Positions 26,584-62,464 of a DNA stretch of 64,000 nucleotides are shown in pieces. Numbering within the stretch: position 1 is the stretch's first letter; each line of letters starts with the position of its first letter. Source of the stretch: Patescibacteria group bacterium (lineage in GTDB: Bacteria > Patescibacteriota > Patescibacteriia > JAHJFT01); contig JAQTTB010000001.1 in the NCBI GenBank assembly GCA_028710985.1, positions 523,014-587,013 of the forward strand, written 5' to 3'. The notes beneath the pieces were generated by a model that worked only from the letters and a program-made list of their open reading frames with translations, had not been told where the DNA came from and made no database searches. A program made the translations under genes and the position numbers.

Positions 26584-26617
26584 ATCGTTATCATATCATG
26601 TTTATTGCATCATTCGG

Positions 26618-26645
26618 TAGGGGCGTATTGCAATACGCCCCTACA
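26618..26645. repeat. REP-like perfect palindrome GTAGGGGCGTATTGCAATACGCCCCTAC
   Basis: 28-nt perfect inverted repeat. Member of the GTAGGGGCG...CGCCCCTAC family. Confidence 0.7.
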
Positions 26646-26776
26646 AGACGACCGCGCATTGACAACCCGGCGCGATTTTGGTACAAATCAATATCCCGCC
26701 GGAATATTTCCGGCCGGAAAACCATGGGTAAGGCTGGCGTCGCAATGCGGCGTTGGTAGGCCCAAGGAGGAAAGAG

Positions 26777-27388
26777 ATGTCCGAAAAGAAAATGATGAGT
26801 CCGAGGCAACTTCGCGAGCTCATGGCCGTGGTCAGCCGGCACCTGTCTATTCATCTGCCGGCCAAGGTGGCGCAGAGCGTGATCGACAAGCCCGGCGATT
26901 TGGAGTTTGAGCTCTGCGAGCTCTTCTGGCGCATCGCCGAAGCGAACGAGAAGGCAAGAAGGGCGGTGGAAGCGAAGCACATCATCGACTGCGACGCCGA
27001 CCCCTATCTGCTCGGCCTCTTCACCGTGGAAGAGCACCGGAGAAGCGGTCAGTTGGAGTGGGACCCGGACAAGGTCGTTCTTTACCTTTCCGATTTGCAG
27101 AGGGGTCGTAGTGTTGTCCAGGGCCACGCGCTCCGCAAGGAACTCCAAAATCAGTCGGTTCTGAACGCCTGCGTCCTGGATTACCTGCTCGTTCATCCAA
27201 ACCTCATTCCCATCATGTGGATGAGGATGCGGGTCTACTTCTGGGGTACGATTTATTGCGATCGAGAAGGTGACCTCTGCGTTCGCGGCCTCTTCTGGGA
27301 AGACGAAAAAGGGTGGTTCTGGCGCTACAAGCATCTTTCGCACGATTTCTACCGCGACGACACCGCGGCGGTTTCTGCAAGCGTCTAG
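26777..27388 (+). CDS. hypothetical Trp-rich protein
   Basis: 203-aa ORF (MSEKKMMSPRQL...) with a strong GGAGGAAAGAG SD. Bracketed by REP palindromes and a CCCGTTTGCATTAAATTGCAACGGG plus T-run terminator. Confidence 0.45.
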   Translation: MSEKKMMSPRQLRELMAVVSRHLSIHLPAKVAQSVIDKPGDLEFELCELFWRIAEANEKARRAVEAKHIIDCDADPYLLGLFTVEEHRRSGQLEWDPDKVVLYLSDLQRGRSVVQGHALRKELQNQSVLNACVLDYLLVHPNLIPIMWMRMRVYFWGTIYCDREGDLCVRGLFWEDEKGWFWRYKHLSHDFYRDDTAAVSASV

Positions 27389-27621
27389 TAGCGGCGCATT
27401 GCAATACGCTGCTACGCGCCGACCCCCTGACCCGTTTGCATTAAATTGCAACGGGTCTTTTTTATTTAAATGCGAGTAGGGGCGGACCCCTGCGTCCGCC
27501 CTGTTCGTCGGGCGTCCGCCCCTACCATTTGTCGTCACCAACAAACGGCCGGTCGTCGATTTTCACCGCGTAGGGGCGAACGGCCGTTCGCCCCTACCGT
27601 TGATCCGTAATACGCCCCTAC
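27388..27621. repeat. cluster of four GTAGGGGCG-family palindromes plus a half-site
   Basis: Palindromes at 27388-27415 (GTAGCGGCGCATTGCAATACGCTGCTAC), 27476-27526 (GTAGGGGCGGAC...GTCCGCCCCTAC) and 27570-27597 (GTAGGGGCGAACGGCCGTTCGCCCCTAC), plus the half-site AATACGCCCCTAC at 27609-27621. Confidence 0.7.
27429..27467 (+). terminator. intrinsic terminator of the 26777 gene
   Basis: GACCCGTTTGCATTAAATTGCAACGGGTC followed by TTTTTTATTT. Confidence 0.6.
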
Positions 27622-27645
27622 CGGCGCAACCCCAATTCATTCCAT

Positions 27646-27673
27646 TTGATTTTAGGGGGAGGTATGATACAAT
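27646..27673 (+). promoter_or_regulatory. putative promoter of paralog A
   Basis: TTGATT, 16-nt spacer, TACAAT. Confidence 0.35.
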
Positions 27674-27701
27674 AATATCAATTTAAAATTAAATTAAAAT
27701 T

Positions 27702-28421
27702 ATGGACAAAATCAACCCATCCATGCCCGGCGAGGCAAAAAATATGTCCGCGGTCTGGATAATCGTCGCCATCGTAATCGTCGCCGTCGCGCTCGGCGGA
27801 TTAATGTATTATTTTCAAACCCTGTCGCAAGAAAAATTCGTTGCGCAGGAACAGGCGATTAATGATTTGCGCGAAGAACTTGGTCAGCCGACGGTCGTGG
27901 CTGAGGAAGGGGTGGAAGAGGAAGGTTCGGCCGAGGAAGAATATCTTACCTTTGAATCCGAACCAGTTTCTGTTTTACCCGAGATATTCTCGTTTGAATA
28001 TGCCAAAGGTTGGCATATTTATCATGAATATGATCATGGATGGGGCGAGGAAAAAGAAATTAGCAAAATATTAGTTTCGCCTGACCCGCTTCAGATTGCG
28101 CTTGACGCCGAATATTTACCTCAAGTTTATATTCTTGTCGATTTTGACTCCGTGGATACTCTTGATGAGTTCGTCGATCGGAAGTATGGAGATTCGGTGG
28201 AAACGAGTGAGGACGTAATAATTGCCAACTATCCCGGAAAAAAGATACACGTTGTAGATGACAAGATCAGCGGAGAAGATATTGAGGTTTATGCCTTCGT
28301 ATCCCCCAATGCCGCGTATTCTATTTATATTTATTATCCCGGCATAAAACAAGCAAGCATTGACCTCCCGGCAGAATATCAGCGCATCATTGATTCATTC
28401 AAGATTGAGTCAGGCAGTTAA
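27702..28421 (+). CDS. paralog A: N-terminally membrane-anchored secreted protein with acidic linker
   Basis: MDKINPSMPGEAKNMSAVWIIVAIVIVAVALGG signal-anchor. First ~55 aa are ~90% identical to paralog B and the C-terminal domain is unrelated. GGGGGAGG SD. Confidence 0.6.
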   Translation: MDKINPSMPGEAKNMSAVWIIVAIVIVAVALGGLMYYFQTLSQEKFVAQEQAINDLREELGQPTVVAEEGVEEEGSAEEEYLTFESEPVSVLPEIFSFEYAKGWHIYHEYDHGWGEEKEISKILVSPDPLQIALDAEYLPQVYILVDFDSVDTLDEFVDRKYGDSVETSEDVIIANYPGKKIHVVDDKISGEDIEVYAFVSPNAAYSIYIYYPGIKQASIDLPAEYQRIIDSFKIESGS

Positions 28422-28475
28422 TCGCACGATTCAAAAAAGGCCGCGCGTTTATTGCCGGCCTTTTTGAATATACGC

Positions 28476-28545
28476 GCAGGGGCGTATTGTCGCGTAGGGG
28501 CGAACGGCCGTTCGCCCCTACCGTTGATCCGCAATACGCCCCTAC
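28476..28545. repeat. second copy of the GTAGGGGCG palindrome block
   Basis: GCAGGGGCGTATTG half-site, GTAGGGGCGAACGGCCGTTCGCCCCTAC (28494-28521) and the AATACGCCCCTAC half-site. The ~95-nt block 28487-28581 is near-identical to 27563-27657. Confidence 0.7.
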
Positions 28546-28570
28546 CGGCGCAACCCCAATTCATTCCATT

Positions 28571-28600
28571 TGATTTTATCCGGGGGGGGGGTGGTATAAT
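28571..28600 (+). promoter_or_regulatory. promoter of paralog B with a G10 homopolymer in the spacer (candidate phase-variable promoter)
   Basis: TTGATT (28571-28576); the spacer contains G10 (28582-28591); extended -10 TGGTATAAT. Spacer is 18 nt with G10 and would be 17 nt with G9. Confidence 0.45.
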
Positions 28601-28630
28601 GCAATCAATAATTAAATCATTAAAATACAT

Positions 28631-29233
28631 ATGGACAAACTAAATGCATCCATGCCCGGCGTGGCAAAAAATATGTCCGCGGTCTGGATTATCGTCGCTA
28701 TCATCATCGTTGCCGCAATTCTCGGCGGAATGATGTATTATTTTCAAACCCTGTCGCAAGAAAAATTCGTTGCGCAGGAAGAGGCGATTGAGGCTCTACG
28801 CGCCGAGTTAAGCGAACCGGCCGCTTCAACTGCGGTAGAAGAAGAGGAGGCGGTTGCGGGAGATCAGGCCAAAGTCGAAGCAATTGATGAGCTTCAATAT
28901 GAAAACGATTATTATGGATTCAGCCTGTCATTCCCAGAGACATGGAGGGGCTATTCCGTTTATCATGAAGCCAATTCAATACATTTTGGTTTCGCGGCGG
29001 AGAAAGATCTCATGGCGATAGAAGTGATGGATTTGGAGGATTGGAAGATAATGAAAAAAGAATTGGATCTTCCGGGCCATGAAGCCGATGCGCTCTATAG
29101 CGCAGCCTACAGGGGCGAGAATGATAATTTCGCATTCTTTGGATGGGCGGCCCAAGACACGGTAAACGATGAGTTTATTCTTTCCAGAAGGATGGAAGTA
29201 GGGTCAATAATTAAAACGTTTAAAGCGAAATAG
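28631..29233 (+). CDS. paralog B: N-terminally membrane-anchored secreted protein
   Basis: MDKLNASMPGVAKNMSAVWIIVAIIIVAAILGG. Shared leader and N-terminus with paralog A; distinct C-terminal domain. Confidence 0.6.
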   Translation: MDKLNASMPGVAKNMSAVWIIVAIIIVAAILGGMMYYFQTLSQEKFVAQEEAIEALRAELSEPAASTAVEEEEAVAGDQAKVEAIDELQYENDYYGFSLSFPETWRGYSVYHEANSIHFGFAAEKDLMAIEVMDLEDWKIMKKELDLPGHEADALYSAAYRGENDNFAFFGWAAQDTVNDEFILSRRMEVGSIIKTFKAK

Positions 29234-29239
29234 TTAAAT

Positions 29240-29290
29240 AAAAAATCGCCCCGACGTTCACTTCATTCAGTCGGGACGATTTTTATTTTC
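29240..29290. terminator. bidirectional terminator between paralog B and prfA
   Basis: ATCGCCCCGAC...GTCGGGACGAT hairpin flanked by A- and T-runs. Confidence 0.55.
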
Positions 29291-29310
29291 TCAGTTCCCG
29301 ATTCACCGAT

Positions 29311-30381
<1,071 letters not shown>

Positions 30382-30402
30382 AAAAATAAATAATGGATAT
30401 CC

Positions 30403-30544
30403 GCTCGTCGTCATTCCGAGCGAAGCCCCGATCGCAATCGGGGCAAAGCCGAGGAATCCCTTTTCTTCAATCCAGCCAGTCTGATTAAAGAGATTCCTCC
30501 GCTCATCCCCCGCGTTGCGGGGGACTCGGTCGGAATGACGAGCG
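30403..30544 (-). ncRNA. structured 5' leader of prfA with a 19-bp long-range stem enclosing GC hairpins (candidate regulatory RNA or MITE-like insert)
   Basis: CGCTCGTCGTCATTCCGAG (30403-30421) pairs with CTCGGTCGGAATGACGAGCG (30525-30544). Inner hairpins GCCCCGATCGCAATCGGGGC and CCCCCGCGTTGCGGGGG. Confidence 0.35.
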
Positions 30545-30556
30545 TTGTATTTAAAA

Positions 30557-30609
30557 ATCCCCGCGCGGGGATTTTGTGGGCGAGTGTAAGGGCGATTCAC
30601 GAATCGCCC
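30557..30609 (-). terminator. rpmE terminator, two hairpins
   Basis: GGGCGATTCACGAATCGCCC, then AATCCCCGCGCGGGGATTTT flanked by A- and T-runs. Confidence 0.6.
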
Positions 30610-56095: not shown

Positions 56096-57223
56096 ATGAT
56101 CATTGGGATTGAGGCGGCTCGTCCGAACCGGCCGCAAAAAACCGGCACCGAATGGTACGGTTACCACGTGATTCAGGAAATTAAAAAAATCGCCGATCCT
56201 TCGGATCGGTTTATTTTATATACAAATGATCCTCTCCGTTCCGGCCTTGAGATAATGCCCAATGCGAACTGGCGCGAGAAGCGGCTCGGCTGGCCGATTC
56301 CGAAGTTTTGGACCCAGGGCCGCCTGTCGCTCGAGATGCTCGTAAATTCGCCGGATGCGGTTTTTATACCCGCGCATGCCATGCCAATTATTCATGTCAA
56401 GAATACGGTGGTCACTCTGCATGACGTTGGTTTTGAAAGATTTCCCGAGCTTTATTCCCGCGCCGATCTCTGGTACCACCGTTGGTCCGCGAAATTCATC
56501 ATCCGCCATGCCGCGAAAATTATCACGGTTTCAAATTTTTCAAAAAACGAACTCGTTGAGCTTTATGGCGCTCCGGCGGAAAAAATCTTTGTTACGCATC
56601 TGGGCTACGATGCCGAACGCTATCGGGTTATTGAGCCGGCCGAGGTGGAAAAAGTTTTACTGAAGCATAGAATCAAAACGCCGTATATTTTTTATATCGG
56701 CCGCCTGGAGCGCAAAAAAAATATTCCGCTGCTTATTGAAGCCTTCGGACGCTTTAAGCAAAAGAATCAAAACGACTCGCACTCGCTCGTTCTGGTCGGT
56801 CGGCCGGGATTTGATTATGAAAAAATTCAGGAAAATATAAAAAAATTCAATCTTGAACAATGGGTAATCCAAACCGGCTGGGTGGGGGAGGATAGTATCC
56901 CGTATTTTTACAACGGCGCGGCGGCGTTTGTTTTTCCGAGCCGTTACGAAGGCTTCGGCATCCCGCTCATTGAAGCAATGGCCTGCGGCACGCCGATTCT
57001 CGCGTCGCGCGCCGGGTCCATTCCCGAAGTTGCGGCCGATGCGGCGTTGTATTTTGAAACCGAGAGTGCGGATTCGCTCATCGCGGGCATGGAAAATATT
57101 CTGAACAATCAGGAGTTGCGCGGCTGTCTCCGCGCCGCCGGCTTGGCCCGCTGCCAAAATTTTTCCTGGGCTCGTACCGCCCGTCAGACTTTGGAAATTT
57201 TGAAATCAAATTCTAGATTCTAG
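56096..57223 (+). CDS. GT4 (GT-B) glycosyltransferase
   Basis: FVFPSRYEGFGIPLIEAMACGTPI EX7E region. Confidence 0.85.
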   Translation: MIIGIEAARPNRPQKTGTEWYGYHVIQEIKKIADPSDRFILYTNDPLRSGLEIMPNANWREKRLGWPIPKFWTQGRLSLEMLVNSPDAVFIPAHAMPIIHVKNTVVTLHDVGFERFPELYSRADLWYHRWSAKFIIRHAAKIITVSNFSKNELVELYGAPAEKIFVTHLGYDAERYRVIEPAEVEKVLLKHRIKTPYIFYIGRLERKKNIPLLIEAFGRFKQKNQNDSHSLVLVGRPGFDYEKIQENIKKFNLEQWVIQTGWVGEDSIPYFYNGAAAFVFPSRYEGFGIPLIEAMACGTPILASRAGSIPEVAADAALYFETESADSLIAGMENILNNQELRGCLRAAGLARCQNFSWARTARQTLEILKSNSRF

Positions 57224-57270
57224 CTTCTAGATTCTAGATTCTCCGCCGCCTCCCCGCAAGGGGATTTTTT
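57222..57270 (+). terminator. TTCTAGA tandem repeats then hairpin terminator
   Basis: TTCTAGATTCTAGCTTCTAGATTCTAGATTCTC overlapping the GT4 stop, then CCCCGCAAGGGG plus T6. Confidence 0.5.
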
Positions 57271-57297
57271 GTGTTATAATGTTGACATAATTTCAAT

Positions 57298-61343: not shown

Positions 61344-61389
61344 GATATTCCTCCTTGAGCACGGTTTAGAATTAACTGGCCTGCATTGA

Positions 61390-62460
61390 TGATTTGGACC
61401 TTATAATTGGTTTTGTTCTTGGCCGCGAATCGCCAATATCCGGTTTACCCCACAAGGGGAACCGGCCACTATATCACAAGATTTCACGCTTGTCAATGGA
61501 GGGGGGGATGTGTTAAAAAAGCGGACATCTTGTCCGCATTTTTTGTTCGTAAATCGGTAAATTGATTTGAATTTTAGATAATTCTGTCAGCAACTCTTGA
61601 CAAATTCCGCAGAGCGTACTAATGTTCAAGGTTCGTTGCGAAAATAATATTTTCAGGGTTGTGTAAATAAGTTTGAAGTAAAAATATTACGGGAGGGGAT
61701 TGAGGGCCAATCTCGCAAATCCTACTTATCTACACCATTGTGAAAATTTTGTCAAGCGATTGACAGATTAATCACGCGTAGAGGAGAAAGATAAGAATGC
61801 CTTGGTATATCTCGTAGTGCCGGGGCGTTTTTGTATTGTAGTAGATGATTGTGGACTTGTATAAAACGAAAACAGACCCAGAAGGGATCTGTCAGGAAAT
61901 TAAGCACTTGAAATGATTTATTGGTTCATTTCAGACCAGGACAGCTTTCCGCCTCACCACTTGTCTTCCCACGGCATGGAAAGACACCAGGTGACTGATG
62001 GGGGCTTGATCGTGTCTAGATCGTGTTTTGTGGCTCCTTAGGCCACGCCTTTTACCTGAATCCGCTCATGTCCTCTTGTCCTCCTTGGCTGATCGAAGTC
62101 CGAGAGCATCGTAGCACTAGCACAACATGCCCATATAATATCACATTTTGGCACTTTTGTCAAGAGACTGCCAGCCCGCAGCAAAGCTGCGGGCAATTTT
62201 AAGTTGTAAATTTTAAATTTTAATTCAAGCCCCAATTTCTAAATTTTTAATAACAAAATGTCGCGTCGCTGCTTGTTTGAAGAATTTTGAATTTATAATT
62301 TAAAATTGAATTATAATTTAAAATTAAAAAAGTCCTCATTTTGCATTACGCGCAAAAGAGGACCGGCACCCAATTCTTATATTAACAAACAATTTATTAG
62401 CATAAGGATTGTGAGCGCTTTTTGACAGAATGTCGAGGCGCGCTCGAGAATACCTCGGAA
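61390..62460. other. AT-rich ~1.1-kb gene-poor region with internal bidirectional terminator and short AT tandem repeats
   Basis: No ORF longer than 65 aa. Terminator AAAAAAGCGGACATCTTGTCCGCATTTTTTG at 61516-61546. Tandem AATTATAATTTAAAATT repeats at 62286-62330. Lower GC than the flanks. Confidence 0.4.
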
Positions 62461-62464
62461 GGAG

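What the first reader, a model, noticed from the sequence alone, without database searches (positions are those of the whole stretch)
28582..28591. G10 homopolymer inside the promoter spacer of paralog B: candidate slipped-strand phase-variation switch
The promoter reads TTGATT-ttatc-GGGGGGGGGG-tgg-TATAAT. The -35 to -10 distance is 18 nt with G10 and would be the optimal 17 nt with G9. The corresponding position in paralog A has only G5. Poly-G tracts in promoter spacers are classic ON/OFF or rheostat switches in Neisseria and Haemophilus. Finding one at a duplicated surface-protein gene is suggestive.
Basis: partly seen in the sequence, partly recalled or inferred. Interest (0 to 1): 0.65.

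Follow-up and report, generated by a model that had tools for sequence, protein, structure and literature searches.

The report
Poly-G tract in a promoter spacer
A run of ten G's lies between the two halves of the promoter of a lineage-specific membrane-anchored protein gene in an uncultivated Patescibacteria genome; it fits the textbook layout of a slippage-driven expression dial, but no data were available to show that its length actually varies.

Summary
The G10 run is real, at 28582-28591. It is the only G or C run longer than 7 in the 64-kb window (about 0.05-0.1 expected). It lies between TTGATT (28570-28575) and TGGTATAAT (28592-28600), 30 nt upstream of a 200-aa gene.

The spacer is ttatCC-G10-tgg, which is 19 nt, not 18. 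The 17-nt spacing that dominates this genome's promoters would need G8, not G9.

The source is a Patescibacteria (CPR) MAG. Paralogs A and B have no close homologues among 5.8 billion proteins. They lie in a 2.7-kb insertion that splits prfA-prmC, a pair that is adjacent in the four nearest relatives examined. B is an N-in membrane-anchored protein with an extracytoplasmic PsbP/Mog1-like domain.

The anatomy matches promoter-spacer homopolymer switches such as porA in Neisseria and vlp in Mycoplasma. Three cautions apply:
- The perfect extended -10 probably works without a -35, so a dial is more likely than an ON/OFF switch.
- Only one such tract is visible.
- No second copy of the locus exists in any collection searched, so length variation could not be tested.

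Verdict: a plausible, unproven new member of a known kind. Interest is moderate to low.

The parts
28582..28591 (+). G10 homopolymer, the candidate slippage tract
   Evidence: Read directly. It is the only G/C run longer than 7 in the window.
28570..28575 (+). -35-like hexamer TTGATT of paralog B (4/6 to TTGACA); last bases of the 88-nt block shared with paralog A
28576..28594 (+). Promoter spacer, 19 nt (ttatcc-G10-tgg)
   Evidence: Counted. One search lists TTGATT-19-TATAAT with TG.
28592..28600 (+). Extended -10 element TGGTATAAT
   Evidence: TGNTATAAT occurs 9 times against 1.43 expected. One search gives the context of each site.
28631..29233 (+). Paralog B CDS (200 aa; MDD4995337.1, PHW53_02655). 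It has an N-terminal membrane anchor, an acidic linker and a C-terminal PsbP/Mog1-like domain.
29246..29284 (+). Hairpin plus T-run terminator after paralog B, in the convergent gap with prfA
   Evidence: Read (tcgccccgac...gtcgggacga ttttt).
28429..28474 (+). Hairpin terminator after paralog A, which isolates B's promoter from A's transcript
   Evidence: Inverted repeat I14, followed by TTTTT.
28491..28578 (+). 88-nt upstream block, 99% identical to 27567-27654. It contains the perfect 28-nt palindrome GTAGGGGCGAACGGCCGTTCGCCCCTAC and ends in the -35.
27646..27673 (+). Paralog A promoter TTGATT-16-TACAAT with TG. Its spacer carries the interrupted run GGGGGAGG.
27702..28421 (+). Paralog A CDS (239 aa; MDD4995336.1, PHW53_02650). 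It shares the first ~60 aa with B (48/60 identical in the local alignment; 78% in the search output), then diverges.
26584..29310 (.). 2,727-nt lineage-specific insertion between prmC and prfA. It holds the REP-like palindromes, ORF211 and paralogs A and B.
   Evidence: prfA and prmC are adjacent, with identical flanking synteny, in relatives L238-L241.

Best explanation
The G10 run is a genuine, mutable homopolymer in the spacer of the sigma-70-type promoter that drives paralog B on its own. Paralog B encodes a membrane-anchored protein with an extracytoplasmic PsbP-like domain and lies in a lineage-specific insertion.

Proposed mechanism: slipped-strand mispairing during replication adds or removes G's. 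Each step changes the distance and helical phase between TTGATT and TGGTATAAT. The assembled allele (G10, 19 nt) is two steps from the 17-nt geometry this genome prefers (G8). It is therefore predicted to be a low-expression state in which the -35 contributes little. G9 and G8 variants would express progressively more. Because the -10 is a perfect extended -10, the expected behaviour is a graded dial rather than a clean ON/OFF switch.

Shown: the tract, the promoter elements, the spacing, the transcription-unit boundaries, the protein architecture, and the genome's spacing preference.

Inferred: that the tract length varies, that spacing changes expression, and that this is selected for.
For: - G10 sits at 28582-28591 and is an outlier in the window and against 1.64 Mb of background loci.
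- It lies between TTGATT and TGGTATAAT, 30 nt from the ATG. Two other strong gene-proximal promoters in the window have leaders of 25 and 29 nt.
- Promoter matches of at least 10/12 peak at 17-nt spacing: 18 of 47 overall and 7 of 13 gene-proximal. All three other intergenic TGNTATAAT sites that have a -35-like hexamer have it at 17 nt.
- TGNTATAAT is enriched, 9 observed against 1.43 expected.
- Paralog A keeps the same -35 and a TG-extended -10 at 16 nt, with an interrupted G-run.
- The core promoter plus 5'UTR is the most diverged segment between the paralogs: 67% identity, against 99% upstream and 87% in the 5' CDS.
- Terminators flank B.
- The cassette is accessory, because prfA and prmC are adjacent in four relatives.
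- There is an experimental precedent for the mechanism. The porA poly-G lies between -35 and -10; relative to 11G, 10G gives 2.2-fold lower and 9G 13-fold lower surface expression (PMC3639595).
Against: - No second copy of the locus exists in any collection searched, so there is no evidence of length polymorphism.
- The perfect extended -10 may make the -35, and hence the spacing, largely irrelevant. Two intergenic TGNTATAAT sites have no -35 at all.
- Only one long G/C tract is seen in 64 kb. A 744-kb genome would be expected to hold about one G/C run of 10 or more by a Markov model alone (extrapolated).
- The run can be derived from an A-like GGGGGAGGTA by three substitutions, with the extra length coming from a TCC insertion. 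Slippage is therefore not needed to explain its origin.
- The closest family members in other organisms have no upstream tract.
Confidence: 0.45

Rival explanations
1. The tract is incidental and non-adaptive. A G-rich spacer inherited with the duplication (GGGGGAGG in A) became uninterrupted in B by substitution or slippage. Transcription is driven essentially by the extended -10, so length changes have little effect, and the tract is not a selected contingency locus.
For: - TGGTATAAT is a perfect extended -10. The same 9-mer occurs at four other sites, and two intergenic TGNTATAAT sites lack any -35.
- In relatives, prmC is preceded by TGGTATAAT or TGATACAAT only 6 nt from its ATG, with the upstream region lying in the prfA coding sequence.
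- Alignment lets G10 arise from GGGGGAGGTA by three substitutions plus a TCC insertion.
- There is a single tract in the window and none upstream of family members elsewhere.
- Extrapolating the Markov expectation to 744 kb gives roughly one such run by chance.
Against: - Where a -35 exists in this genome it sits at 17 nt with high regularity, which implies that it is used.
- The tract lies in a promoter spacer, a class I estimate (not computed) at about 1% of the genome. The gene is accessory and encodes a membrane-anchored protein with an extracytoplasmic domain, the kind of gene that usually carries such tracts.
- The empirical run-length distribution falls off faster than the Markov model.
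Confidence: 0.35
2. The tract, or its exact length, is an assembly or sequencing artefact, for example homopolymer miscalling or a consensus drawn over a mixed population.
For: - The source is a MAG on a single 744,538-bp contig, and the sequencing platform is unknown.
- G/C homopolymers of 10 are error-prone on most platforms (own knowledge).
- The tract starts 3 nt after an 88-nt block duplicated at 99%, a place where assemblers can have trouble.
Against: - The homologous position in paralog A is also G-rich (GGGGGAGG), so a G-run there is ancestral.
- Unique sequence flanks the tract on both sides and continues into an intact promoter and ORF.
- The window holds 214 A/T runs of 6-8 nt, yet coding density is about 89%. 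The twelve or so genes flanking the locus also match the lengths of their orthologues in relatives: PrfA 356 against 353-354 aa, PrmC 283 against 287, MetK 345 against 337-345, and the 540-aa gene exactly. Consensus quality at homopolymers is therefore good.
- A length error of plus or minus 1 cannot be excluded.
Confidence: 0.1
3. The G-run acts as a fixed cis element rather than a variable one. It could be a GC-rich spacer that permanently damps this promoter relative to paralog A, or part of a protein-binding site continuous with the conserved upstream palindrome block.
For: - The 88-nt block immediately upstream is 99% conserved between the paralogs, more than the coding sequence. It contains a perfect 28-nt palindrome, which is compatible with an operator.
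- The paralogs differ most in the core promoter, consistent with fixed divergence in regulation.
Against: - No regulator gene or motif was identified.
- A pure homopolymer is an unusual binding site.
- A G10 run is intrinsically unstable, so a fixed function would be better served by an interrupted run such as the one in A.
Confidence: 0.1

Closest known systems
Neisseria meningitidis porA promoter poly-G (also opc and fetA poly-C)
   Same: A G homopolymer of 9-11 nt lies between the -35 and -10 hexamers of a gene for a cell-envelope protein. One-base changes alter hexamer spacing and give graded expression: relative to 11G, 10G is 2.2-fold lower and 9G 13-fold lower (PMC3639595).
   Different: In porA the tract has been shown to vary and to be selected by antibody. 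Here no variation data exist. The assembled length gives a 19-nt spacer, two steps longer than the optimum. The -10 is an extended -10 that may buffer the effect. The organism is an uncultivated CPR bacterium, and the product is a PsbP-like anchored protein, not a porin.
Mycoplasma hyorhinis vlp genes (poly-A tract in the promoter)
   Same: Tandem genes share a highly conserved 5' module (upstream region, promoter and N-terminal membrane-targeting segment) and have divergent C-terminal surface-exposed parts. Each is transcribed separately. A promoter homopolymer controls expression in a genome-reduced, host-dependent bacterium (PMC10502178, citing Citti and Wise 1995).
   Different: In vlp every family member carries the tract, and ON/OFF switching is documented. 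Here only B has an uninterrupted run, it is poly-G rather than poly-A, there are only two genes, and they are TM-anchored rather than lipoproteins.
PsbP-like / Mog1-fold extracytoplasmic proteins (Pfam PF18933 PsbP_2)

Membership tests
SSR-mediated transcriptional phase variation (promoter-spacer homopolymer type) | Uninterrupted simple repeat long enough to slip at high rate (G/C of about 8 or more) | tested here: met
   G10 at 28582-28591. The length threshold is from established knowledge of Neisseria and Campylobacter tracts.
SSR-mediated transcriptional phase variation (promoter-spacer homopolymer type) | The tract lies between functional -35 and -10 elements, so that length sets hexamer spacing | tested here: inconclusive
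   By sequence it lies between TTGATT and TGGTATAAT, and the genome shows a 17-nt spacing preference. The transcription start was not mapped, and -35 use is uncertain because of the extended -10.
SSR-mediated transcriptional phase variation (promoter-spacer homopolymer type) | Tract length is polymorphic within or between populations of the same strain | not testable with these tools
   No reads were available. The proteins are singletons. Exact-protein look-ups found no contig. The DNA scans returned only chance matches. The nearest relatives have 71-74% PrfA identity, and the four examined lack the cassette.
SSR-mediated transcriptional phase variation (promoter-spacer homopolymer type) | Reversible, high-frequency change in expression that tracks tract length | not testable with these tools
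   This needs reporter fusions or single-cell or metatranscriptome data.
Sigma-70-type extended -10 promoter | TGn immediately upstream of a TATAAT-like hexamer at a suitable distance from the start codon, with the motif enriched in the genome | tested here: met
   TGGTATAAT at 28592-28600, 30 nt from the ATG. TGNTATAAT occurs 9 times against 1.43 expected, and 0 of 100 shuffles reach 9. Six of the nine sites are intergenic.
PsbP_2 / Mog1-PsbP fold (PF18933) | Sequence match above the Pfam gathering threshold | tested here: not met
   B has no Pfam hit at E of 0.01 or better. Only 10 of 40 aligned relatives match PsbP_2, with best E = 9.7e-07.
PsbP_2 / Mog1-PsbP fold (PF18933) | Predicted fold matches solved PsbP/Mog1 structures | tested here: met

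The most novel reading that the evidence does not exclude
Patescibacteria (CPR) would use slippage-prone promoter homopolymers as contingency loci. These would stochastically tune lineage-specific, membrane-anchored PsbP-like proteins with extracytoplasmic domains, carried in REP-flanked accessory cassettes. This would be a bet-hedging device for an episymbiont facing variable hosts or phages, analogous to mycoplasma vlp systems. No paper in the held library links Patescibacteria to SSR-based phase variation. The nearest is a coding 9-mer repeat locus in a Gracilibacterium (PMC6851277).
Probability: 0.25. Interest if true: 0.55.

Novelty: new member of a known kind. Interest (0 to 1): 0.33.

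Why it matters
If the tract length varies and tunes transcription, this would be a first candidate contingency locus of the promoter-spacer type in the Candidate Phyla Radiation. How these cells manage surface variation is known mainly from diversity-generating retroelements (own knowledge) and from a coding-repeat locus (PMC6851277). It would also give a concrete, cheap test, namely counting G's in reads, for stochastic surface switching in uncultivated episymbionts. If the tract is invariant, or the extended -10 makes spacing irrelevant, the finding is an ordinary homopolymer in an intergenic region.

Tried and rejected
**Searches for a second copy of the locus**
- Exact-protein look-ups of paralog B found nothing on record.
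- The word-indexed protein search found only A and B themselves.
- The 18-mer TTCATTCCATTTGATTTT was scanned in genome contigs and metagenome contigs. It returned 237 loci, but blastn of 27301-29300 against all of them gave no extended match.

**Relatives**
- PrfA-based relatives (71-74% identity) were fetched to look for an orthologous tract. They lack the whole cassette.
- The closest members of B's family elsewhere (loci of P0003 and P0004) have no G/C run upstream.

**Alternative readings of the region**
- Rfam found nothing credible around the locus (E up to 1) or across the whole window at gathering thresholds, and no tRNA or tmRNA was found. The region is therefore not a known riboswitch or RNA gene.
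- The two ORFs that cross the tract (28418-28630 on the minus strand, 28452-28643 on the plus strand) translate the palindromic repeats (…GRGERPFAPT…) and are not annotated between locus tags 02650 and 02655. I rejected them as coding, so this is not a frameshift switch.
- An alternative promoter downstream of the tract (TAAAAT at 28621-28626) was rejected. It lies 4 nt from the ATG and has no TG and no -35.
- The G7 at 61501 was checked as a possible second spacer tract. It sits next to a terminator hairpin and not in a promoter spacer.

**Uninformative searches**
- Foldseek against the PDB with the full-length model was uninformative.
- PHROGs and NCBIfam gave no hits for A, B or ORF211.

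Full report
**1. The observation**

Ten consecutive G's occupy 28582-28591. In the 64-kb window (50.7% G+C) this is the only G or C run longer than 7. The run-length series for G is 8922, 2887, 459, 105, 17, 3 and 1 for lengths 1-7, then a single run of 10. A first-order Markov model expects 0.054 G runs and 0.038 C runs of 10 or more.

As an empirical background, 1.64 Mb of unrelated prokaryotic and metagenomic loci that I had fetched by accident contain one G/C run of 10 or more. Sixty kb from this organism's nearest relatives contain no G/C run of even 6. The tract is therefore unusual for the window. Extrapolating the Markov figure to the 744-kb source contig still gives about one such run by chance.

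The spacer reads ttatCC-G10-tgg, which is 19 nt, not 18.

The built-in promoter scan allows 16-18 nt. It reports paralog A's promoter (TTGATT-16-TACAAT, with TG) but not B's. My own scan with spacers of 14-21 nt finds B at 19 nt. The canonical 17 nt therefore corresponds to G8, 18 nt to G9, and A's 16 nt to G7.

**2. Is it a real promoter?**

Several genome-internal observations say yes.

- TGNTATAAT occurs 9 times in the window against 1.43 expected. None of 100 shuffles reaches 9, and six of the nine sites are intergenic.
- Matches of at least 10/12 to TTGACA-N-TATAAT peak sharply at N = 17: 18 of 47 overall and 7 of 13 within 60 nt of a start codon.
- The three other intergenic extended -10 sites that have a -35-like hexamer (21448, 39006, 43193) all have it at 17 nt. 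Two sites (3790, 57272) have none.
- Shine-Dalgarno motifs are rare, and leaders are short and AT-rich. B's SD-less 30-nt stretch between the -10 and the ATG is therefore typical.
- A hairpin with a T-run follows paralog A (28429-28474), and another follows B (29246-29284). B is thus a monocistronic unit that depends on this promoter.
- No annotated gene lies between locus tags PHW53_02650 and PHW53_02655.
- The two small ORFs that cross the tract merely translate palindromic repeats.
- No Rfam family or tRNA is present.

**3. Context**

The window comes from a MAG labelled "Patescibacteria group bacterium" on a 744,538-bp contig. Paralog A is MDD4995336.1 and paralog B is MDD4995337.1.

The two genes share three segments at different levels of identity:
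- an 88-nt upstream block, 99% identical, containing the perfect palindrome GTAGGGGCGAACGGCCGTTCGCCCCTAC and ending in the -35;
- a diverged core promoter plus 5'UTR, 67% identical;
- the first 172 nt of coding sequence, 87% identical.

After that they are essentially unrelated, at 58%. They are thus partial paralogs, with a common regulatory and membrane-anchor module joined to different ectodomains.

At the tract position A reads GGGGGAGGTA where B reads G10. B has an extra TCC just upstream.

The four nearest relatives examined (PrfA 71-74% identical) have L31-prfA-prmC-DUF3048-L25 with prfA and prmC adjacent. In the window the same neighbours are present, but 2,727 nt (26584-29310) separate prmC from prfA. 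That stretch holds all the REP-like GTAGGGGCG…CGCCCCTAC palindromes in the window, an orphan 211-aa ORF, and paralogs A and B. The cassette is therefore a lineage-specific insertion, the kind of accessory locus where contingency genes are usually found.

**4. Mechanism and rivals**

My best explanation has confidence of about 0.45. G10 is a genuine, slippage-prone tract whose length sets the spacing between the -35 and the extended -10. The assembled allele (19 nt) is two steps from the preferred geometry and is probably a low state. G9 and G8 would raise expression.

Because TGGTATAAT is a perfect extended -10, and such elements occur here without any -35, I expect a dial rather than ON/OFF. 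The steps that are shown are the anatomy, the spacing preference, the unit boundaries and the protein architecture. The steps that are inferred are tract instability, the effect on expression and adaptive value.

The rivals are:
- an incidental tract with negligible regulatory effect (about 0.35);
- a fixed cis element (about 0.1);
- an assembly or length artefact (about 0.1). This is disfavoured because A is also G-rich at that position. In addition, genes remain intact despite 214 A/T runs of 6-8 nt, and gene lengths match the orthologues.

**5. What could not be done**

The decisive evidence, length polymorphism, is out of reach. No other copy of the locus exists in the protein collections. 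My two DNA scans used an 18-mer that proved too short and returned only chance hits. The relatives examined lack the cassette. Family members elsewhere have no upstream tract, so the feature is not a family trait.

**6. Comparison with known systems**

By mechanism and geometry the closest system is the porA poly-G spacer tract of N. meningitidis. There, relative to 11G, 10G gives 2.2-fold lower and 9G 13-fold lower surface expression (PMC3639595).

By locus architecture the closest is the M. hyorhinis vlp family. Its tandem genes have a conserved promoter and leader module, divergent exposed parts, and a promoter poly-A tract (PMC10502178).

Membership of "SSR phase-variable locus" is only half tested. 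The tract length criterion is met, the position criterion is plausible, and polymorphism and switching are untestable here.

In the held literature, the one paper that contains both "Patescibacteria" and "phase variation" is a study of DNA methylation in archaeal consortia, judging by its title and abstract. The nearest CPR precedent is a hypervariable coding 9-mer repeat in a Gracilibacterium (PMC6851277).

**7. Verdict**

If true, it is a new member of a well-known kind in a lineage where that kind has not been described. Interest is 0.33.

Noticed in passing
window 26584-29310: A 2,727-nt lineage-specific insertion separates prmC from prfA. The two genes are adjacent (16-40 nt apart), with identical flanking synteny, in four relatives (L238-L241). 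prmC keeps its own TG-extended -10 close to its ATG.
   Followed up: partly
window 26617-26644, 27388-27415, 27476-27525, 27570-27597, 28494-28521: A family of REP-like palindromes (GTAGGGGCG…CGCCCCTAC, some perfect over 28 nt). In this window they are found only inside the prfA/prmC insertion. One copy sits 48 nt upstream of the -35 of each paralog.
   Followed up: partly
window 26753-27388 (+): An orphan 211-aa ORF with no Pfam, NCBIfam or PHROGs match. It is bracketed by 34-nt inverted palindromes (26617-26650 / 27382-27415, 85% complementary). Whether it is a real gene or a small mobile unit is unknown.
   Followed up: partly
window 29298-29325: A perfect 8-nt tandem repeat, CCGATTCA x3.5 (TGAATCGG on the prfA strand), overlaps the last codons and the TGA stop (29311-29313) of prfA. 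Copy-number change would alter only the extreme C-terminus.
   Followed up: no
window 61344-62464: A 1.1-kb stretch with no ORF of 90 aa or more and no Rfam or tRNA hit. It contains several promoter-like sites, a G7 run (61501-61507) next to a bidirectional hairpin terminator, and AT-rich tandem repeats at 62195-62330. It may hold an undescribed RNA gene or genes.
   Followed up: partly
window 57210-57242: A 7-nt tandem repeat, ATTCTAG x4.7, spans the end of the gene at 56096-57223. It lies 30 nt upstream of the extended -10 TGTTATAAT at 57272, which has no -35.
   Followed up: no
whole window: Expression signals of this organism: the extended -10 TGNTATAAT is about 6-fold enriched (9 against 1.43); -35 hexamers, when present, lie at 17 nt; Shine-Dalgarno motifs are rare; several -10 elements lie only 6-11 nt from the start codon, which suggests frequent leaderless mRNAs.
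   Followed up: partly
window 30382-30600 (-): The mechanical prfA ORF starts at GTG 30600 and is 429 aa. The annotated protein and all relatives start at the ATG at 30381 (356 aa). The 73-codon N-terminal extension is an ORF-calling artefact.
   Followed up: yes
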